Below, piece after piece: positions 400-11,434 of a stretch of 16,182 nucleotides of DNA; within the stretch, counting starts at the first letter, position 1, and each line of letters begins with the position of its first letter. Both the position numbers and the translations under genes were made by a program. The notes under the pieces were generated by a model. That model saw only the letters and a program-made list of their open reading frames with translations, was not told where the DNA came from and did no database searches. The DNA is from a virus (taxonomy: Duplodnaviria; Heunggongvirae; Uroviricota; Caudoviricetes). The stretch covers positions 1-16,182 of the IMG/VR virus record IMGVR_UViG_2526164689_000027, one strand, 5' to 3'.

Positions 400-782
400 C
401 GAATTTCTCCCGTGTACAGGAACAGAGTTAAAAAGCCGGAACCGGAATCAAATTACAGGATGGCCATCTGCCAGTGGCTGGTCGTAAAAAAAGGCCACGC
501 CATGCGCAGCCGGAAATAAAGGGATAACGATGATAGTTTGAGAAAAACAGAAACGACACTTTTGTGGCAAAGCATGGTGCCGGGTGCCTCCCGGTGAGTT
601 CAGCCCGGTGCCACTAAACCCTCGTCATTCTCGTTTTGATAATCAGAGATTATACCGTCACCAGTCGCCCCTCCGCTCAGGGGGATTCACCATGCAGTTT
701 TTTTCTAACAAATTCTCATCCGGGCAGACAACATTCAACTGACTTAATTGTGAGGTATGTAACATTCCTGTTGAACGGATAC

Positions 783-2139: not shown

Positions 2140-3189
2140 TTACCCGAGCACGCCAGTCGCAAAGGCGTGATCAAGAAAACGAAAAATTAACTCAATCTGA
2201 GAGCCGTACTTTTTCTCAAACTTCAGCGGGTCTGCATGAAGTTCGTTGTGGTGCTCCCGGCACAACGGTAGCGTGAAAATATCGTGGGCCTTTGTTCCCA
2301 CTCCCCCCTGACCATGACCAATCAGGTGATGCGGATCGTCAGCTGGCTTACCACAACACGCACACGGCTGTGTCTTTACCCAGCGCGTGTATTTCTCATT
2401 AACCCAACGGCGACGTTTAGGCCGCCTCATGAACGATTCAGGAGACTCCGGATCAACGGCGATACTGACAACCGTTTTTTTCTGTGGTGGATTTTGTTGC
2501 TGGTGGACGTGAAGTGGCAGCGCAATATTTTTTGTGCGCTGCTTCAGTATGCTGATGGCTGTCTGTTCTCCCGGTACGATGTCACTCTCACGGTATACGG
2601 AGCGGATTTTTTCCGCTGGTAATCCCAGCGAACGACGCGCTACTGCCTCAGGTAGTGCATCCACCACCTGATTGCAGGCCGCCCACCAGGATAATTCGGC
2701 CAGCGATAACTCCCTCTCCTGCGTACCGCTTATTGCGTGACGGATGACATCAATCATCCAGGCAACCAGATTCTGCTGAGCAAGTTGATCGAGTGATTCT
2801 GATGTCTGGTCGCGCAGCTGGTTGTCACAGTGCCAGCACAACACCATCGCGCCGGTACCATAACGGTGAATGACTGTTTCGCTGTGATGATAATCGCCGT
2901 GTGGCCACTGGCAGGATTTCACGTGACGTAATAACCAGTCAGACAGTGCACCTGCACCACCTGCTGCACGAATAACCCGCTCATCGCTGAAAAATGGCAG
3001 TAATGTTTTATCCTCTGCCAGCGGCTGGCGAACGGCAGGAACGACTCCGGACGGCAGACCACGCATGTTTTTCGGTTCCGGCTCCACCAATATTCTGCCG
3101 TTATGGAATACTGACATTGATTCACGGCCTGGCTTAACGATAACCAGACCGAGTTCCGGTACCAGAACAGGTCGAAGTAATACCCGCAC
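2140..3189 (-). CDS. ydfU: DUF968-family prophage protein (YdfU-like) with C-terminal HNH-like motif
   Basis: 349 aa from a GTG start at 3189 with GGAGGT SD, 1 nt after the upstream stop. Synteny with rusA and the Q-like gene matches Qin ydfU. C-terminus CACCGKPADDPHHLIGHGQGGVGTKAHDIFTLPLCREHHNELH resembles an HNH/zinc-finger nuclease motif. Confidence 0.65.
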   Translation of the reverse strand: MRVLLRPVLVPELGLVIVKPGRESMSVFHNGRILVEPEPKNMRGLPSGVVPAVRQPLAEDKTLLPFFSDERVIRAAGGAGALSDWLLRHVKSCQWPHGDYHHSETVIHRYGTGAMVLCWHCDNQLRDQTSESLDQLAQQNLVAWMIDVIRHAISGTQERELSLAELSWWAACNQVVDALPEAVARRSLGLPAEKIRSVYRESDIVPGEQTAISILKQRTKNIALPLHVHQQQNPPQKKTVVSIAVDPESPESFMRRPKRRRWVNEKYTRWVKTQPCACCGKPADDPHHLIGHGQGGVGTKAHDIFTLPLCREHHNELHADPLKFEKKYGSQIELIFRFLDHAFATGVLG

Positions 3190-3190
3190 G

Positions 3191-3460
3191 TTACCTCCAG
3201 ATGCGCTGCAGGAATGTGCGGGACGGACGCGGTGGGCGTTCGGAATAAGGGAGCCTGACGGAGATTATCCAGTGACGACGATCGAAGCTGAGGGCTTTCT
3301 CAAACTCATATCCGCGCCTGCGGTAACACTGGATCAGCCATTCGGCCTGTTCTTCAGTGCATAGGGGATGCTGGAACCAGTCGGTTTTAAATACGTGCGA
3401 ACACCGCCCTTGCCTACTGGCAAGGGCGGCAGAATTGTGCAATCTGCTATCGTGCGCCAT
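3191..3460 (-). CDS. Hypothetical nin-region protein (89 aa)
   Basis: ATG at 3460 with GGAG SD about 9 nt upstream; the stop abuts the DUF968 start. No recognisable motif. Confidence 0.4.
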   Translation of the reverse strand: MAHDSRLHNSAALASRQGRCSHVFKTDWFQHPLCTEEQAEWLIQCYRRRGYEFEKALSFDRRHWIISVRLPYSERPPRPSRTFLQRIWR

Positions 3461-3513
3461 CGGGATCTCCGGTGGCACGGTGTTTCTCAGCGACGGTTCA
3501 AGTCAGCCTGATT

Positions 3514-3741
3514 TTATAGCTGCTTCTGAATATCATCAACAGGTAATCCTGCCAACTCTCTTACCTCAGAAAGAAGAGAAAGGCTTACAACAACCTCATT
3601 ACTTCGCATAACAAAACCACATTGAAAAGAACCATCACTGTTTCTGTAAACAACAACCGGGCGCGTGCTCTCATAAAACCCCGGGATCAAACTGGCTGGG
3701 ATTTTCACAACACCTCCTGACGTAAAGGAAATGAAATGCAT
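3514..3741 (-). CDS. Hypothetical small protein (75 aa; alternative start at 3786)
   Basis: Open frame on the operon strand; ATG at 3741 has only a weak purine-rich SD. No recognisable motif. Confidence 0.3.
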   Translation of the reverse strand: MHFISFTSGGVVKIPASLIPGFYESTRPVVVYRNSDGSFQCGFVMRSNEVVVSLSLLSEVRELAGLPVDDIQKQL

Positions 3742-3929
3742 TATCGCTTCTCTCGGACTATAACCATGAAAAGAGACGCATTTCACTCAGTAAATCTGAG
3801 GATTTTATGCGCAAGAACAATGACTTTTTCTGTCTGCCGTTTATACAATCTGAATTACGTCTATTTTTTGAACACCGATAAATCAGCAAGCATTCTCAAA
3901 TAAAGATTGCCTCCATAGTCCACATGGTG

Positions 3930-3944
3930 TAACACTATGTGTTA
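3930..3944 (+). promoter_or_regulatory. Palindromic putative operator in the promoter of the toxin-antitoxin pair
   Basis: TAACAC-TAT-GTGTTA perfect inverted repeat, overlapping an AT-rich -10-like TATATAAAAT about 20 nt upstream of the toxin ATG (3965). Type II TA operons are usually autoregulated through such palindromes. Confidence 0.3.
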
Positions 3945-3964
3945 TATAAAATGCAGAGGCAGGT

Positions 3965-4336
3965 ATGCGAATTTTCAAAAACGCCTGGTTTGAACGTTTC
4001 GCCCGAAAACATCGGATTTCCGATAAATCGCTGCGCAAAATCGTGGAGCAGGCCGATAAGGGGATCATATCCGCAAATTTGGGTAGTGGTGTCATTAAAC
4101 AAAGATTAGCCCGAAGTGGTGGCGGAAAATCAGGCGGTTACCGGACAATAATTTTTTACCGCGTTGCAGAAAAAGCCTTTTTCATCTACGCATACGCAAA
4201 GAATGAACGAGAGAATATCACTGCTATAGAGGAAAATGCTTTTCGAAAAGCCGCTCCCCATGTCCTCAATCTTACTGATGAACAGCTGGCACAATTGATT
4301 CAACAAGGCCAGTTCACGGAGGTACCCAATGAGTAA
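3965..4336 (+). CDS. RelE/ParE-superfamily toxin, HigB-2 / Gp49-like (123 aa)
   Basis: Block GSGVIKQRLARSGGGKSGGYRTIIFYRVAEKAFFIYAYAKNERENITAIEENAFRK parallels the V. cholerae HigB-2 core (GTGGLRKIRV...GKRGGSRIIYYF...YLLTIYGKNE). Its stop overlaps the start of the next gene by 8 nt, with toxin first as in HigBA-type operons. Confidence 0.7.
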   Translation: MRIFKNAWFERFARKHRISDKSLRKIVEQADKGIISANLGSGVIKQRLARSGGGKSGGYRTIIFYRVAEKAFFIYAYAKNERENITAIEENAFRKAAPHVLNLTDEQLAQLIQQGQFTEVPNE

Positions 4337-4646
4337 AAATTACCGCAGTGATGCACTTGCATCTGTACATGAAATGATGGAGTCACTCCATGATATCGGT
4401 GCAATCACAAAACAAACTATGCGCGAATTCGATGAAACTTGTCTTCAGCCTGCGCCGGTAATGTCTCCGGAAAGGATCCGTGCACTGCGAGAACGAGAGC
4501 ATCTGTCTCAACCTGTTTTTGCCAGATACCTCAACGTCAGTAAAAACCTGATATCAGACTGGGAACGAGGAGTGAAACGCCCGGGAGGTGCAGCTCTTCG
4601 GCTTCTTTCAGTTGTCGAGAAAAACGGGATCCAGGTAATATCCTGA
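4329..4646 (+). CDS. HTH (XRE-type) antitoxin, HigA-2-like (105 aa)
   Basis: Translationally coupled to the toxin. C-terminal region RIRALREREHLSQPVFARYLNVSKNLISDWERGVKRPGGAALRLL is a typical XRE helix-turn-helix. Confidence 0.7.
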   Translation: MSKNYRSDALASVHEMMESLHDIGAITKQTMREFDETCLQPAPVMSPERIRALREREHLSQPVFARYLNVSKNLISDWERGVKRPGGAALRLLSVVEKNGIQVIS

Positions 4647-4748
4647 TATTCTAATACAACAAAACCCGCCGAAGCAGGTTAAGTGCGGGTGCGTTGAGGA
4701 TGCCTGACACATCAGAGGTGGCGAGGGATTTCTCCCTCGCCAGGTCTC

Positions 4749-4904
4749 TTACTCCTCAGGTTCGTAAGCTGTGAAGACAGCGACCTCCGTCTGGCCGGTT
4801 CGGATTCGTACCTCGCAGAGGTCTTTCCTCGTTACCAGTGCCGTCACTATGACGGTTAAACAGATGACAATCAGGGCGATTAACATCGCCTTTTGCTGCT
4901 TCAT
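4749..4904 (-). CDS. hokD: Hok/Gef-family type I membrane toxin (HokD/RelF-like, 51 aa)
   Basis: MKQQKAMLIALIVICLTVIVTALVTRKDLCEVRIRTGQTEVAVFTAYEPEE matches the Hok/Gef family across its full length (transmembrane helix then conserved CEVR..GQTEVAVFTAYE). ATG at 4904; the track ORF extends in frame to an upstream ATG at 4961. Confidence 0.85.
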   Translation of the reverse strand: MKQQKAMLIALIVICLTVIVTALVTRKDLCEVRIRTGQTEVAVFTAYEPEE

Positions 4905-5175
4905 AGCCTGCTTCTCCTTGCCTTTCGGCACGTAAGAGGCTAACCTACATGTGCAAAGCATGAAATTGGCCTCAGATTAATGTTAAGCGTCCTGCAAGAC
5001 GCGTAATGTTAACTGGGGCTTTTCTCTGTCTGCCTTACGGCGGCATGCCCGAGGCAGACAGCCTCAAGCACCCGCAGCAATTCTACTTAACTCTTCTTTC
5101 CCCGCAAATCATTTTATCCCCGATGGTAATGTTCTCCCGATATGGGAATTCCCATATCAAGGTTAACTCAATCGG

Positions 5176-5727
5176 TTAAAGCTCCATTAATTTTCCGGCC
5201 AGTTCATCTCGTGGCATTACCAGCCATCCGCGCGATTTAAGCAAAGCCAGGGCTTCTTCAACCGTCACCAGCTGGCCAGGCGCATAACTTCGGATGAAGG
5301 CGGTTTTATCGTCACGGATCGCCAGGTGAAAATCGATATTCATTTTTCCCATAGCCCGCTCTTTCTCGTACTGGTTGAAGTAACTGTCTTCGAGTTTTTC
5401 GAATACTTCCCACGCCTGATCGGTTTCGAGCATTTTTGCATGACGGGCTGCTCCGCGTTCTGTCCAGAGGATGAGAGTGCGGGTTTTGGGAGAAATTTTC
5501 ACCTCATTTTGCGACTCGTTTAAAACTAGTCGCAAATTTTTGAGCTCATCACCAACAGCTTTAAAGAAGTGTTTTCCCTCAATAAATCGAGATTTATTTT
5601 CATGGTGATTCTGCTGTATACGGATTGCTTCTGTTCCGTAAAGGCGGGCGAGTAACTCAGTTGTGATTACAGGAATCTGGTTATAAGTGACAGGGGAAAG
5701 GTTTTTGACAGTAACTTGAGTCGTCAT
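5176..5727 (-). CDS. ORF6N-domain protein (phage antirepressor-like, 183 aa)
   Basis: ATG at 5727 with GAGGG SD. N-terminus ITTELLARLYGTEAIRIQQNHHENKSRFIEGKHFFKAVGDEL fits the ORF6N/KilA-N-like consensus (from recollection). Confidence 0.5.
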   Translation of the reverse strand: MTTQVTVKNLSPVTYNQIPVITTELLARLYGTEAIRIQQNHHENKSRFIEGKHFFKAVGDELKNLRLVLNESQNEVKISPKTRTLILWTERGAARHAKMLETDQAWEVFEKLEDSYFNQYEKERAMGKMNIDFHLAIRDDKTAFIRSYAPGQLVTVEEALALLKSRGWLVMPRDELAGKLMEL

Positions 5728-5891
5728 GATAACGCCCTCTGGTTGATGAATTTAACTATCACCACCTTCAGGTCTCAATCATCAGGTGGCGAGACGTACA
5801 GGGTTGAGACTACCGGATCAACCAACCGGCCAGCCTTTCGGCTGCCCCATACGCCTCACCATAATTCAGATGTGCGTGCGCATACGACAAT

Positions 5892-5913
5892 AAAAAACAC
5901 GCTCGCGGCGTGT
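5892..5913 (-). terminator. Rho-independent terminator in the nin-type region (tR2-like position)
   Basis: On the minus strand: stem ACACGC / GCGTGT with 5-nt loop CGCGA, followed by 6 U (complement of A5892-A5897). Confidence 0.45.
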
Positions 5914-5998
5914 GTCTGTCGCGGTTGAATATCCGGGGTCTCAATCCCGACGGTCAACTCGACCGTGCGGTGAATATAGCCCCGGATTAGTAATTACG

Positions 5999-7788: not shown

Positions 7789-8613
7789 TTACCCCCTTGC
7801 TGACTGGTTAACCTGCGCCCTGACGTGATTTACGTGACGGGCGAATTTCTGCTCCCACTGAATCTGCGTAAACACTTTCCCCTCCGCTGCCCAGTAGTCC
7901 CGGAATGCGGTAAGTTCAGCAGGTGTAAATTCTGTCTCCGGCAAAGCCATCCCCCACAACGCAGCCCGTCGTCGAAAATCCCGTGACGGATACCAGCTAT
8001 CGGTCATCGGAAATTTTCCGATGGGTTCGCTCAGGCCATCCAGGAATACATGGGGGGCTGCCTGTAACGACAAAACTTCCTGCTCACTGATCGGAGCACT
8101 CTCGCGTGCGTTATGTGTGGGGTTTAGATCTTTGGGTTCCTTTGGGTTCCGTGATCCGTTTTTGGGTGTCTTTGATGGAAAATTTGGGTGTCTTTGGTTA
8201 TTTTCCATGCAACAAAGAGTTCCGTTTTTGGGGCTCTTTTGTGCTGAAACATAACCGTTTTCGGTACTGTTTTTATTAACAGCACCAATTTTACCCACCT
8301 TTAAAGACACCCGTTTTTGGGTGTATTCAGGCTCGGCAACACTTTCTTCTACACCGATAAGTCGGTACACCACAATTTGCTTTGTTCTGCCTTTTCTCTC
8401 ACCGGTATCAACAATTAACCCAATCTCCATCAGGTGTCGTAAGCTGTCCTGCACAGTCTTTTTGTTCAGTTCCGTTACTTCTGCCAGTGCAGATACAGAC
8501 GGGTATGCACACAAATCGGCACCGCACATATCAGCAAGCCAGGTCAATACAGACTTACTGGATGAACTGCCGGTTTTCACCTTTTTAGCCCATCGTAGTG
8601 CATCGATACTCAT
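7789..8613 (-). CDS. Replication initiator, lambda O-like (274 aa), with ori iterons embedded in the coding sequence
   Basis: ATG at 8613 with AGGGG SD; the track's longer start at 8688 would overlap the upstream gene by about 100 nt. N-terminal wHTH (MSIDALRWAKK...LRHLMEIGLIVD), a repeat-encoded linker (KSPKNGT...SKTPKNGSRNPKEPK), and a C-terminal domain, directly upstream of the P-like gene. Confidence 0.6.
   Translation of the reverse strand: MSIDALRWAKKVKTGSSSSKSVLTWLADMCGADLCAYPSVSALAEVTELNKKTVQDSLRHLMEIGLIVDTGERKGRTKQIVVYRLIGVEESVAEPEYTQKRVSLKVGKIGAVNKNSTENGYVSAQKSPKNGTLCCMENNQRHPNFPSKTPKNGSRNPKEPKDLNPTHNARESAPISEQEVLSLQAAPHVFLDGLSEPIGKFPMTDSWYPSRDFRRRAALWGMALPETEFTPAELTAFRDYWAAEGKVFTQIQWEQKFARHVNHVRAQVNQSARG
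8131..8324. repeat. Iteron cluster, putative prophage origin of replication
   Basis: TTTGGGTTCC twice in tandem (8131-8150); TTTGGGTGTCTTTG at 8161-8174 and 8184-8197; degenerate copies at 8225-8240 and 8311-8324; an inverted copy AAAGACACCC at 8303-8312; AT-rich stretch 8253-8300. Lies in the linker region of the O-like gene, as the lambda ori does. Confidence 0.5.
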
Positions 8614-9136
8614 ACGAACCCCTGGCAGATATTTGTTTATCTGCAAAGTAATATTGATACTGCTGACGATACGCATGCTTGAAAGCAATAGCTTTTTCTA
8701 TAAGCTCGTCAGTCTCACGTTCCACAACAGATGGATCCGCAAAAAGCAGTCCGGACTCCACCACATCGCCATATTCTTTGTTTAACCCGGCGATCATGTA
8801 CGTGATGCTTTTTCCGTCACTAATTTCACGATACAACCTGAAATCATTAATCCGGATAGCCTCCATAATTGCAGGCACTAGCGCCGTGAACTTTTCACGC
8901 TTATCCCTGGTGTCGATAGCCTTCCAGCGTTCGAATATCTTCACTCGATTAACGCCAAGCGCTCGCTGATCAACCGCGCCACCTTCATCTGTGACACGCT
9001 GAACATCGATGTTCGGGCGCTCTTTCAAAACCCAGAATGCTTCAGTGATTAATATCGTCGCCTGCTCCTGTGTCATTCCTGGTCGACATATCCAGGCATC
9101 CAGAGCCTCACGAGCCTGTTCAGGAGTGATTTTCAT
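8585..9136 (-). CDS. Protein in the cII position (183 aa), possibly YdaT-like
   Basis: ATG at 9136 overlaps the end of the cro-like gene by 17 nt. Sits between cro-like and O-like genes. Family assignment is by position only and is weak. Confidence 0.4.
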   Translation of the reverse strand: MKITPEQAREALDAWICRPGMTQEQATILITEAFWVLKERPNIDVQRVTDEGGAVDQRALGVNRVKIFERWKAIDTRDKREKFTALVPAIMEAIRINDFRLYREISDGKSITYMIAGLNKEYGDVVESGLLFADPSVVERETDELIEKAIAFKHAYRQQYQYYFADKQISARGSYEYRCTTMG

Positions 9137-11376: not shown

Positions 11377-11434
11377 TTCTGGTGACATTTGGCGGTATCA
11401 GTTTTACTCCGTGACTGCTCTGCCGCCCTTTTTT
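11377..11434 (+). ncRNA. dicF: DicF small regulatory RNA (Hfq-dependent sRNA targeting ftsZ and other mRNAs)
   Basis: TTCTGGTGACATTTGGCGGTATCAGTTTTACTCCGTGACTGCTCTGCCGCCCTTTTTT matches my recollection of E. coli DicF almost base for base, including the terminator hairpin GGCGG (11391-11395) / CCGCC (11423-11427) and U-tract. Lies just upstream of dicB as in Qin. The 5' end is approximate (RNase-processed in K-12). Confidence 0.7.

What the first reader, a model, noticed from the sequence alone, without database searches (positions are those of the whole stretch)
3927..4646. HigB-2/HigA-2-like toxin-antitoxin pair inserted antisense in the nin region beside Hok
The pair is on the plus strand, opposite to the surrounding rightward operon, with its own palindromic operator, which points to an independently acquired cassette. 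In K-12 Qin I recall relBE sitting next to hokD; here a different type II family occupies the neighbourhood and relBE is absent. Two toxin systems of different types side by side in a prophage could serve stabilisation or abortive-infection defence.
Basis: partly seen in the sequence, partly recalled or inferred. Interest (0 to 1): 0.6.

Follow-up and report, generated by a model that had tools for sequence, protein, structure and literature searches.

The report
HigBA-2-type toxin-antitoxin cassette in prophage
The two small plus-strand genes are an intact toxin-antitoxin pair of the well-studied HigB-2/HigA-2 kind, carried as a mobile add-on in a Shiga-toxin-type E. coli prophage next to a Hok toxin; this is a correct but fairly ordinary finding, and databases already annotate the pair as a toxin-antitoxin system.

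Summary
3965-4336 (+) encodes a full-length PF06296 toxin (161 bits), the Pfam family that holds Vibrio cholerae HigB-2. 4329-4646 (+) encodes an XRE-HTH protein. For both proteins the nearest solved relative, by sequence and by predicted fold, is V. cholerae HigB-2 or HigA-2. The four experimentally defined HigB-2 active-site residues align with R47, R60, Y77 and K79.

The genes overlap by 8 nt (ATGAGTAA). They evolve under strong purifying selection (dN/dS 0.03-0.05). They are preceded by a unique palindrome, TAACAC-TAT-GTGTTA (3930-3944). Its core is kept 32-58 nt upstream of the toxin gene in relatives from many phyla.

The cassette (~3928-4646) lies antisense to the early-right operon, between hokD and nin-type genes. 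It recurs in at least 7 different flank contexts and in 223 of 5,426 complete E. coli genomes. relBE, which flanks hokD in K-12 Qin, is absent here. The toxin gene is frameshifted by three independent events in 16 of 45 related loci, while the antitoxin is never disrupted.

It does not match Gp49 (PF05973). Toxicity, neutralisation and any role in prophage stability or phage defence remain untested. It is a new member of a known kind, of low interest.

The parts
3928..3946 (.). Putative operator. Perfect inverted repeat TAACAC-TAT-GTGTTA (core 3930-3944), extendable to TGTAACA-N5-TGTTATA. It also marks the left edge of the sequence shared by all cassette contexts.
   Evidence: sequence; one match in the window, 0.03 expected; conserved in all diverged cassettes while the upstream sequence diverges; the core mAyAC-N3-GTGTk lies 32-58 nt upstream of the toxin start in 50 of 79 genomes from many phyla, against 4 of 294 control windows. 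Binding by the antitoxin is inferred by analogy with the single HigA2 operator (PMC11006873).
3940..3948 (+). Candidate extended -10 element (TG-t-TATATA) overlapping the right arm of the palindrome. The -35 is poorly defined.
   Evidence: Read from the sequence. The TGTTATA string is kept in 4 of 5 context types. The consensus scanner did not call it. Inference only; no transcription start data.
3956..3959 (+). Shine-Dalgarno GAGG, 5 nt before the toxin ATG.
   Evidence: sequence.
3965..4336 (+). Toxin gene (123 aa): HigB-2-type RelE-fold mRNA interferase, PF06296. Putative active site R47, R60, Y77, K79; Gly-rich beta2-beta3 loop 49-59.
   Evidence: PF06296, 161 bits, 1-120/120. (best PDB sequence hits HigB-2). 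(model pLDDT 84; top 10 PDB folds are all HigB2). (conservation). (dN/dS 0.05). (PGAP: type II TA RelE/ParE family toxin).
4318..4322 (+). Shine-Dalgarno GGAGG for the antitoxin, inside the 3' end of the toxin gene. It is followed by the 8-nt overlap ATGAGTAA (4329-4336), which suggests translational coupling.
   Evidence: The block ACGGAGGTACCCAATGAGTAAAAATTACCGCAGTGATGC is invariant in all five aligned contexts.
4329..4646 (+). Antitoxin gene (105 aa), HigA-2/YiaG-like. N-terminal part 1-44 (two predicted helices) is the presumed toxin-neutralising part. C-terminal XRE helix-turn-helix 45-99 is the presumed dimerisation and operator-binding domain.
   Evidence: HTH_3, HTH_31. (HigA-2, E 7e-8 and 3e-8). 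(top 8 PDB folds are all HigA2; C-terminal domain rmsd 0.9-1.4 A). (86% mean column identity). (dN/dS 0.01-0.04). (intact in all 45 related loci).
4663..4680 (-). Hairpin plus T-run on the minus strand: the terminator at the 3' end of the hok locus. It lies just beyond the right edge of the cassette. There is no T-run on the plus strand, so it is not a plus-strand terminator in this window.
   Evidence: terminator-like site on the minus strand; hok-locus homology to other phages begins at window 4652-4677; the O104:H4 copy has a symmetric version, AACCCGCCGAAGCGGGTTTT.
4749..5073 (-). Neighbouring type I hok/sok locus: hokD CDS 4749-4904, overlapping mok-like ORF to 4961, sok/leader region 4899-5073. 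It is convergent with the cassette.
   Evidence: HOK_GEF, 81.7 bits. (hokD, WP_000813254.1, the same protein as in K-12). (Rfam sok RF01794, 117 bits).
3493..3927 (-). Variable segment to the left of the cassette. It holds orf90 (3514-3786, phrog_31309, function unknown) and the divergent intergenic region. It is not part of the TA unit but accompanies it in the STEC context.
   Evidence: homology to Qin-like prophages including K-12 stops at window ~3490, and 167 genomes cover at least 80% of 3150-3930. (PHROG hit).

Best explanation
This is an intact bicistronic type II toxin-antitoxin module of the HigBA-2 kind: a PF06296 toxin followed by a HigA-2/YiaG-like XRE-HTH antitoxin. It is carried as a self-contained, horizontally exchanged accessory cassette ('moron') in a Qin/DLP12-like lambdoid prophage of Shiga-toxigenic E. 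coli.

Proposed working, all inferred by homology. The two genes are transcribed together from a promoter whose -10 region overlaps the palindrome at 3930-3944, and they are translationally coupled through the ATGAGTAA overlap. The toxin is a RelE-fold, ribosome-dependent endoribonuclease that cleaves mRNA in the ribosomal A site, using R47, R60, Y77 (or Y75) and K79. The antitoxin dimerises through its C-terminal HTH domain, binds the single inverted repeat to repress the operon, and wraps its N-terminal ~44 residues around the toxin to neutralise it. If antitoxin synthesis stops, the antitoxin decays and the freed toxin arrests translation.

Shown here by computation: gene structure, family membership, fold similarity, active-site conservation, family-wide operator conservation, purifying selection, mosaic contexts, and repeated decay of the toxin gene only. 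The biological pay-off for the prophage (addiction/stabilisation, or exclusion of other phages) is not determined.
For: Family and fold:
- PF06296 at 161 bits, full length. PMC11980606 places V. cholerae HigB-2 in PF06296 and describes toxin-first relE-yiaG modules with HigA2-like HTH antitoxins in E. coli.
- The only significant PDB sequence hits are HigB-2 (E 4e-4; profile 1e-4) and HigA-2 (E 7e-8; profile 3e-8).
- The AF2 toxin model (pLDDT 84) has HigB2 chains as its top 10 PDB neighbours, probability 1.00, TM 0.56-0.63.
- The antitoxin model (pLDDT 83) has HigA2 as its top 8. Its C-terminal domain superposes at 0.9-1.4 A over 62-63 residues.

Active site:
- The alanine-scanned HigB2 residues R51, R64, Y82 and K84 (PMC5416850) align with R47, R60, Y77 and K79.
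- The Gly/Lys-rich beta2-beta3 loop is present.
- R60 and K79 are invariant and R47 is at least 90% conserved in 35 homologues.

Operon and operator:
- 8-nt overlap and internal GGAGG.
- The palindrome is unique in the window, with 0.03 expected.
- It is conserved in cassettes whose toxins are only 46-52% identical.
- It is present in 50 of 79 genomes across phyla at 32-58 nt from the start, against 4 of 294 control windows.
- Its geometry resembles the single V. cholerae higBA2 operator, which spans the region from the -35 to over the -10 (PMC11006873).

Selection:
- dN/dS is 0.03-0.05 for both genes.
- A homologous antitoxin lies immediately downstream of the toxin in 77 of 80 genomes.
- Three independent 1-nt indels disrupt the toxin in 16 of 45 related loci, while the antitoxin is intact in all 45. 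This is the decay pattern expected if the toxin is harmful without its partner.

Mobility:
- At least 7 left-flank and 8 right-flank clusters.
- Four annotated contexts, in each case opposite in orientation to the neighbouring phage genes.
- 223 of 5,426 complete E. coli genomes, all copies chromosomal.
Against: - No experiment: toxicity, neutralisation, RNA cleavage and DNA binding are all inferred.
- Direct sequence similarity to HigB-2 is weak (E ~1e-4, about 21-25% identity) and covers only residues 38-90.
- Only one of the five AF2 toxin models was confident; the other four had pLDDT 59-67.
- The antitoxin N-terminus has no detectable similarity to the HigA2 disordered segment. It is predicted as two helices rather than disordered, so the 'beta-strand sliding' neutralisation of V. 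cholerae need not apply.
- Y77 is Phe in most distant homologues, so the catalytic Tyr assignment is uncertain. Y75 is the conserved Tyr.
- The four base-contacting residues of HigA2 all differ here (N73, S76, D77, V82), and the operator sequence is different.
- The consensus scanner did not find the proposed promoter.
- There is no plus-strand intrinsic terminator after the antitoxin.
- The toxin has no hit in PADLOC and no NCBIfam model.
Confidence: 0.85

Rival explanations
1. The cassette's selected function is anti-phage defence. It would act as an abortive-infection or superinfection-exclusion module that protects the lysogen, triggered when an infecting phage shuts off host transcription and the antitoxin decays. 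Prophage addiction would be secondary. This concerns the biological role and is compatible with the TA mechanism above.
For: It sits in a variable accessory slot of prophages, packed with other toxin systems: hok/sok here; a Doc-family toxin plus hokD in O104:H4; an extra HigA-family antitoxin in SCU-104. It has its own regulatory region and is oriented against the lytic operon, as lysogen-expressed morons are. RelE/ParE-superfamily toxins are discussed as defence toxins in PMC11980606.
Against: The toxin has no PADLOC hit, and the antitoxin gives only generic HTH hits. The family is mostly chromosomal in very diverse bacteria, with no obvious phage link. The toxin is frequently pseudogenised in prophages, which argues against strong selection for a defence function. 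No phage-challenge data exist.
Confidence: 0.2
2. The pair is functionally decayed in this window. The 'toxin' no longer poisons, and only the HTH protein matters, as a transcription regulator or anti-addiction factor.
For: 16 of 45 related loci carry frameshifted toxins with intact antitoxins. The antitoxin is more conserved than the toxin in 73 of 77 genomes.
Against: In this window the toxin ORF is full length (1-120 of 120 Pfam positions) and identical to the commonest E. coli allele. It keeps R47, R60, Y77 and K79. Between intact alleles dN/dS is about 0.05.
Confidence: 0.07
3. It belongs to a different type II family: classical RelBE (as in K-12 Qin), Rts1-type HigBA, or Gp49/HigA (PF05973).
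For: PGAP gives the generic name 'RelE/ParE family toxin'. The literature uses 'HigBA2-like' loosely, including for Gp49-domain toxins of Acinetobacter (PMC5906591).
Against: Pfam gives only PF06296 at E<=0.01, with no PF05973, PF05015 or PF05016. Gene order is toxin-first and the antitoxin is an XRE-HTH, not a RelB ribbon-helix-helix. tblastn with K-12 RelB/RelE finds nothing in the window. After HigB2, fold hits drop to probability 0.6 or less.
Confidence: 0.02

Closest known systems
Vibrio cholerae HigB-2/HigA-2 (VCA0468/VCA0469; PDB 5JA8, 5JAA, 5J9I, 8A0X)
   Same: Same Pfam toxin family, PF06296 (PMC11980606). Toxin-first bicistronic order. Nearest solved structure for both proteins. RelE-like active-site residues align (R51/R64/Y82/K84 with R47/R60/Y77/K79). 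A Gly-rich beta2-beta3 loop is present. The antitoxin has an N-terminal neutralising part and a C-terminal XRE-HTH. A single inverted repeat lies next to or over the -10 region (PMC11006873).
   Different: Only about 21-25% (toxin) and 27-35% (antitoxin) identity. The toxin is 123 aa against 110 aa. The antitoxin N-terminus shows no sequence similarity and is predicted as two helices rather than disordered. The operator is TAACAC-N3-GTGTTA against TGTACGC-N5-GCGTACA, and all four base-contacting residues differ. The genomic setting is a lambdoid prophage rather than a superintegron cassette.
Bicistronic relE-yiaG modules (PF_RelE toxin plus YiaG-like antitoxin) described by Gerdes, mBio 2025 (PMC11980606)
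   Same: PF06296 toxin upstream of an HTH antitoxin. That antitoxin has two N-terminal helices joined to a C-terminal HigA2-like HTH, which matches the model. The modules were reported in E. coli strains.
   Different: That paper highlights a subfamily whose toxins have extended, disordered N-termini. This toxin matches the Pfam model from residue 1 with no extension. The antitoxin is not a YiaG orthologue: PRK10072 scores 24.6 bits against a cut-off of 110. I could not check whether this exact protein is in that paper's tables.
relBE-hokD (relBEF) of the E. coli K-12 Qin prophage
   Same: A type II RelE-superfamily module directly beside the same HokD protein (WP_000813254.1), in the same kind of prophage, between the replication and DUF968/antiterminator genes.
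   Different: relBE is antitoxin-first, co-oriented with and upstream of hokD, and has a RelB ribbon-helix-helix antitoxin. The cassette here is toxin-first, on the opposite strand, on the other (downstream) side of hok, and has an XRE-HTH antitoxin. There is no sequence similarity.
Gp49-type toxins with HTH antitoxins (PF05973; N15 tad-ata, Acinetobacter 'HigBA2-like')
   Same: Sister family in the RelE/ParE superfamily. Toxin-first order, XRE-HTH antitoxin, often on phages and plasmids (PMC11980606; PMC5906591).
   Different: No PF05973 match at E<=0.01, so this toxin is not a member.
Phage morons (independent accessory transcription units in lambdoid phages; PMC3594210)
   Same: A compact unit with its own regulatory region. 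It is present or absent among related prophages, sits in several mosaic contexts, and is oriented against the surrounding operon.
   Different: No plus-strand terminator in this window. No flanking direct repeats. Promoter activity has not been shown.

Membership tests
Type II toxin-antitoxin system (generic) | Two small adjacent co-oriented genes forming one operon, often overlapping | tested here: met
   123-aa and 105-aa ORFs with an 8-nt overlap ATGAGTAA and an internal GGAGG. The pairing is kept in 77 of 80 genomes.
Type II toxin-antitoxin system (generic) | Toxin arrests growth and the cognate antitoxin neutralises it by direct binding | not testable with these tools
   Indirect only. 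The toxin is frameshifted in 16 of 45 related loci and the antitoxin never. Homologues in V. cholerae have been tested (PMC5416850).
HigBA-2 / PF06296 ('PF_RelE') modules | Toxin matches Pfam PF06296 above the gathering score | tested here: met
   161.3 bits against a cut-off of 27, residues 1-120 on profile positions 1-120 of 120. All 120 listed homologues carry PF06296.
HigBA-2 / PF06296 ('PF_RelE') modules | Toxin gene upstream of the antitoxin gene | tested here: met
HigBA-2 / PF06296 ('PF_RelE') modules | RelE-type fold closest to V. cholerae HigB2 | tested here: met
   The top 10 Foldseek PDB hits are all HigB2 chains (probability 1.00, TM 0.56-0.63). The next hit has probability 0.60. 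Caveat: only the best of five models is confident.
HigBA-2 / PF06296 ('PF_RelE') modules | RelE-like active site (HigB2 R51, R64, Y82, K84) and basic Gly-rich beta2-beta3 loop | tested here: met
   These align with R47, R60, Y77 and K79, and with loop ARSGGGKSGGY. R60 and K79 are invariant and R47 is at least 90% conserved. Position 77 is Phe in most distant homologues, while Y75 is at least 90% conserved.
HigBA-2 / PF06296 ('PF_RelE') modules | Antitoxin with a C-terminal XRE-HTH dimerisation and DNA-binding domain like HigA2 | tested here: met
   HTH_3 and HTH_31. HigA-2 at E 7e-8. Rmsd 0.9-1.4 A to 5J9I over 62-63 residues.
HigBA-2 / PF06296 ('PF_RelE') modules | Antitoxin N-terminal intrinsically disordered segment that folds onto the toxin | tested here: inconclusive
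   Residues 1-44 have no sequence match to HigA2. They are highly conserved and predicted as two helices with pLDDT about 61-82. No complex model could be made.
HigBA-2 / PF06296 ('PF_RelE') modules | Single inverted-repeat operator overlapping the promoter, bound by the antitoxin | tested here: inconclusive
   One conserved inverted repeat lies 22-36 nt upstream of the ATG, which meets the sequence requirement. The promoter position and antitoxin binding are not testable here.
HigBA-2 / PF06296 ('PF_RelE') modules | Ribosome-dependent cleavage of mRNA at the A site | not testable with these tools
   Inferred from V. cholerae HigB-2 (PMC5416850; PMC11980606).
Gp49-like toxins (PF05973) | Match to PF05973 | tested here: not met
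   PF06296 was the only Pfam family reported at E<=0.01.
RelBE (K-12 type) | Antitoxin-first order, RelB ribbon-helix-helix antitoxin, RelE of PF05016 | tested here: not met
   The order is toxin-first and the antitoxin is an XRE-HTH. tblastn with K-12 RelB/RelE gives no hit better than E 4.8.
Phage moron | Self-contained unit present in some and absent from other related phages, in varied contexts | tested here: met
   At least 7 left-flank and 8 right-flank clusters. K-12 Qin lacks it. Boundaries are ~3928 and ~4646.
Phage moron | Own promoter and terminator | tested here: inconclusive
   A candidate extended -10 overlaps the palindrome, but the scanner did not call it. No plus-strand terminator was found.
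Catalogued anti-phage defence systems (PADLOC-DB v2) | Match of the effector to a defence-system model | tested here: not met
   The toxin matched 0 families. The antitoxin gave only generic HTH matches.

The most novel reading that the evidence does not exclude
The antisense placement may be functional. To reach the antiterminator gene, the early-right (PR-type) transcript must cross the whole cassette in the antisense direction. Prophage induction would therefore silence higBA-2 transcription by collision and antisense RNA, the antitoxin would decay, and the HigB-2-like RNase would be released at induction. The same release could follow when a superinfecting phage shuts off host transcription. 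Under this reading the cassette is an induction- or infection-coupled translation switch (abortive infection or control of lytic timing) rather than a passive addiction module. Plus-strand read-through, with no terminator after 4646, would also make RNA antisense to the entire hok mRNA and so link the two toxin systems.
Probability: 0.1. Interest if true: 0.55.

Novelty: new member of a known kind. Interest (0 to 1): 0.22.

Why it matters
If the pair is active, a group of Shiga-toxigenic E. coli prophages (223 of 5,426 complete genomes, including O157:H7, O145, O26, O103 and, with a broken toxin, O104:H4) carries a translation-arresting RNase next to Hok. That could help keep these prophages in the population, affect the outcome of induction, or exclude other phages.

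The practical gains from this analysis are modest:
- a precise family assignment in place of the generic 'RelE/ParE' label;
- precise cassette boundaries;
- a family-wide operator motif (mAyAC-N3-GTGTk) that can be tested directly;
- the observation that this subfamily's antitoxin is unusually conserved.

None of this changes current understanding of TA systems.

Tried and rejected
- NCBIfam has no model for the toxin. The antitoxin gives only sub-threshold hits (MqsA family, YiaG-like PRK10072, DicA, NadS), so none is a family assignment.
- PADLOC gave nothing for the toxin.
- PHROGs places both proteins only in families of unknown function, phrog_5869 and phrog_2104.
- A literature search by RefSeq protein accession found no paper. 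I found no experimental study of this E. coli prophage pair.
- The sigma-70 consensus scan found one plus-strand site only, at 3820-3849 (ATGACT-18-TACAAT). That site lies in flank sequence shared with just one other context, so I do not take it as the cassette promoter. A consistent -35 could not be defined across contexts.
- No direct repeats bracket the cassette, so there is no sign of transposition or site-specific insertion.
- GC content is lower in the cassette (0.42-0.48) than in the DUF968 flank (0.54). The neighbouring unrelated segment is lower still, so this says little.
- I first recalled V. cholerae HigB-2 as a Gp49-family protein. The literature (PMC11980606) and the Pfam result corrected this.
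Full report
**What is there**

The window is part of a Qin/DLP12-like lambdoid prophage read mostly on the minus strand. In order it carries replication genes, a DUF1627 gene, an ORF6N gene, hok, two small ORFs, DUF968 (ydfU-like), RusA and an antiterminator. The DicA/DicC-type immunity region, DicF and an integrase lie further right.

Two ORFs lie on the plus strand inside this minus-strand array, at 3965-4336 (123 aa) and 4329-4646 (105 aa). They overlap by 8 nt (ATGAGTAA). A GAGG precedes the first start codon and a GGAGG precedes the second. An identical locus in E. coli O157:H7 PV15-279 is annotated by PGAP with exactly these two CDS. PGAP names them 'type II toxin-antitoxin system RelE/ParE family toxin' and 'helix-turn-helix domain-containing protein', and hokD follows at window 4749-4904.

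**Family assignment**

The first protein matches Pfam PF06296 over the whole model (161 bits, E 1.4e-47) and no other Pfam family at E<=0.01. The second matches XRE-type HTH models. PF06296 carries the misleading name 'RelE'. According to Gerdes (PMC11980606) it is the family of V. cholerae HigB-2, whereas K-12 RelE is in PF05016 and Gp49 toxins are in PF05973.

Searches of the PDB by sequence return only HigB-2 chains for the toxin (E 4e-4; 1e-4 with a 35-sequence profile). HigA-2 is the best hit for the antitoxin (E 7e-8; 3e-8 with a profile).

An AlphaFold model of the toxin has pLDDT 84, although only one of five models was confident. Its ten nearest PDB folds are all HigB2 chains (probability 1.00, TM 0.56-0.63), and the next hit drops to probability 0.6. 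The antitoxin model (pLDDT 83) has HigA2 as its eight nearest folds. Its C-terminal domain superposes on 5J9I at 0.9-1.4 A over 62-63 residues at 35% identity.

The four HigB2 residues whose replacement by alanine cripples the toxin are R51, R64, Y82 and K84 (PMC5416850). They align with R47, R60, Y77 and K79 here, and the Gly-rich beta2-beta3 loop is present. Across 35 homologues R60 and K79 are invariant and R47 is nearly so. Position 77 is Phe in most distant members, where Y75, two residues before it on the same predicted strand, is the conserved tyrosine.

Its side remark equating this family with Gp49 is not.

**Regulatory region**

The palindrome TAACAC-TAT-GTGTTA lies at 3930-3944, 21 nt before the toxin start codon. 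With up to one mismatch allowed it occurs once in 16 kb, where 0.03 matches are expected by chance.

In an alignment of five cassette contexts, similarity begins at this palindrome (about 3928) and the sequence to its left is unrelated between contexts. Every E. coli-type cassette keeps it with at most single-base changes. Two metagenomic viral loci whose toxins are only 47-52% identical carry TAACACTAAGTGT in the same place.

I also examined 80 species-representative genomes from Gamma-, Beta-, Alpha- and Deltaproteobacteria, Cyanobacteria, Acidobacteriota, Chloroflexota, Nitrospirota and others, of which 79 had enough upstream sequence to score. In 50 of these 79, AACAC-N3-GTGTT with up to two arm mismatches lies 32-58 nt upstream of the toxin start. 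Only 4 of 294 control windows from the same loci show such a match.

This phylogenetic footprint, together with the near-invariant recognition-helix region of the antitoxin, makes an operator function very likely. The V. cholerae operon is likewise controlled through a single inverted repeat lying after the -35 and across the -10 (PMC11006873). Its sequence is different (TGTACGC-N5-GCGTACA), and the four base-contacting HigA2 residues are all different here. The fold and geometry are therefore shared, but the specificity is not.

The promoter itself is uncertain. An extended -10 (TG-t-TATATA, 3940-3948) overlaps the right arm, but no consistent -35 exists and the scanner did not call it.

**Evidence that the genes are functional**

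Between intact alleles, synonymous sites are near saturation while dN/dS is 0.03-0.05 for both genes. A homologous antitoxin follows the toxin in 77 of 80 genomes.

Among the 45 related loci fetched here, 16 carry a disrupted toxin. Three different 1-nt indels are responsible, singly or in combination. The antitoxin is intact in all 45. This asymmetry is what one expects if the toxin is harmful without its partner, and it is the best indirect evidence for toxicity available without an experiment. The copy in the window is the intact, commonest allele.

**Mobility and boundaries**

- Homology of the left flank to Qin-like prophages, including K-12, ends at about 3490.
- Homology of the hok locus to many phages starts at 4652-4677.
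- The sequence common to all cassette contexts runs from about 3928 to the antitoxin stop at 4646.

The unit occurs in 223 of 5,426 complete E. coli genomes, always on the chromosome, and in 40 IMG/VR contigs. Clustering 600 nt on either side gives at least 7 left-flank and 8 right-flank groups, in 12 combinations.

The annotated contexts are:
- hokD / cassette / orf90-orf95-DUF968 (this window);
- hokD-Doc toxin / cassette / ORF6N-NinB (O104:H4 HUSEC2011, toxin frameshifted);
- BRO-N and a HigA-family gene / cassette / ORF6N, near the integrase (SCU-104 and phage PhiR12_3);
- DUF551 / cassette / orf95-DUF968.

In each of these the cassette is opposite in orientation to its phage neighbours. 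No direct repeats bracket it. It therefore behaves as a moron exchanged by recombination, not as a transposable element.

K-12 Qin has relB-relE-hokD-rem-ydfU, all in one orientation. Here relBE is absent, and the new pair lies on the other side of hok.

**Mechanism and role**

By homology, the most likely working is a HigBA-2-type module. Its parts would be a ribosome-dependent mRNA endonuclease, an antitoxin that neutralises it through its N-terminal ~44 residues, and autorepression through the HTH dimer on the palindrome. I put this at 0.85.

How the N-terminus neutralises the toxin is open. It is as conserved as the HTH, is predicted as two helices and has no similarity to the disordered HigA2 segment. 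This resembles the 'YiaG-type' antitoxins that Gerdes modelled for E. coli relE-yiaG modules.

What the cassette does for the prophage is unknown. Plasmid stabilisation is documented for V. cholerae higBA-2 (PMC11980606) and for a HigB2A2-like pair in Acinetobacter (PMC8914354). Anti-phage defence is possible but unsupported (no PADLOC hit).

One structural point is worth recording as inference. The early-right transcript has to cross the cassette in the antisense direction to reach the antiterminator gene. In addition, the plus-strand transcript has no terminator before the hok locus. Induction could therefore interfere with antitoxin supply, and cassette read-through could generate RNA antisense to hok.

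**Verdict**

The finding is real and correctly interpreted, but it is a new, uncharacterised member of a family that is known structurally and biochemically. It is already flagged as a TA toxin by the standard annotation pipeline, and it sits in a setting (a prophage accessory slot) where TA modules are common.

The mildly unusual points are the family-wide conserved operator and an antitoxin more conserved than its toxin (mean 70% against 58% identity; higher in 73 of 77 genomes). Interest is 0.22.

Noticed in passing
window 5782-5866 (-) and 5892-5966 (-), upstream of ORF 5176-5727 (-): Rfam hits to C4 antisense RNA (69 bits) and isrK (51 bits) lie directly upstream of the ORF6N-domain gene. 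The arrangement resembles the P1 immI (c4-ant) or Salmonella Gifsy isrK-antirepressor modules. This comparison rests on my own knowledge. The ORF6N protein also gives weak PADLOC PDC-S05 hits.
   Followed up: no
L002, L003, L030-L043 (toxin gene); alignment columns 52, 105 and 297: Three different single-base indels, alone or combined, disrupt the toxin gene in 16 of 45 related loci, including E. coli O104:H4 HUSEC2011 and phage PhiR12_3. The antitoxin gene is intact in all 45. Orphan antitoxins are thus common in this prophage group.
   Followed up: partly
L047-L126 (80 species-representative genomes) compared with window 3965-4646: In this subfamily the antitoxin is more conserved than the toxin: mean 70% against 58% identity to the window proteins, and higher in 73 of 77 loci. 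Antitoxins are 75-82% identical between E. coli and Beta-/Gammaproteobacteria, NC10 and Bdellovibrio MAGs. This is the reverse of the usual pattern for type II TA pairs and is unexplained.
   Followed up: partly
L003 4770-5818 (HUSEC2011); L004 4696-5001 (SCU-104): In other prophages the cassette abuts further toxin-antitoxin genes: a Doc-family toxin with a small upstream ORF plus hokD, or an extra HigA-family antitoxin gene. The slot looks like a hotspot that collects TA modules.
   Followed up: no
window 8585-9136 (-): RefSeq names the homologue of this 183-aa ORF, located next to the Cro/CI-like gene, 'toxin YdaT family protein'. It would be a third toxin-labelled gene in the window.
   Followed up: no
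window 11377-11428 (+), 536-724 (-): Rfam finds DicF RNA (77 bits) in the immunity-left region and STnc100 sRNA (134 bits) near the left end of the window.
   Followed up: no
L046 4375-4692 and 4721-5035: A metagenomic viral contig has two tandem antitoxin-like genes (about 62% identity to the window antitoxin) after a single toxin gene.
   Followed up: no
window 3514-3786 (-): orf90 (phrog_31309, no Pfam hit) lies in the variable segment between the cassette and the conserved orf95-DUF968 block. It accompanies the cassette in the STEC context. Its start faces the toxin promoter region across a 178-nt divergent spacer.
   Followed up: no
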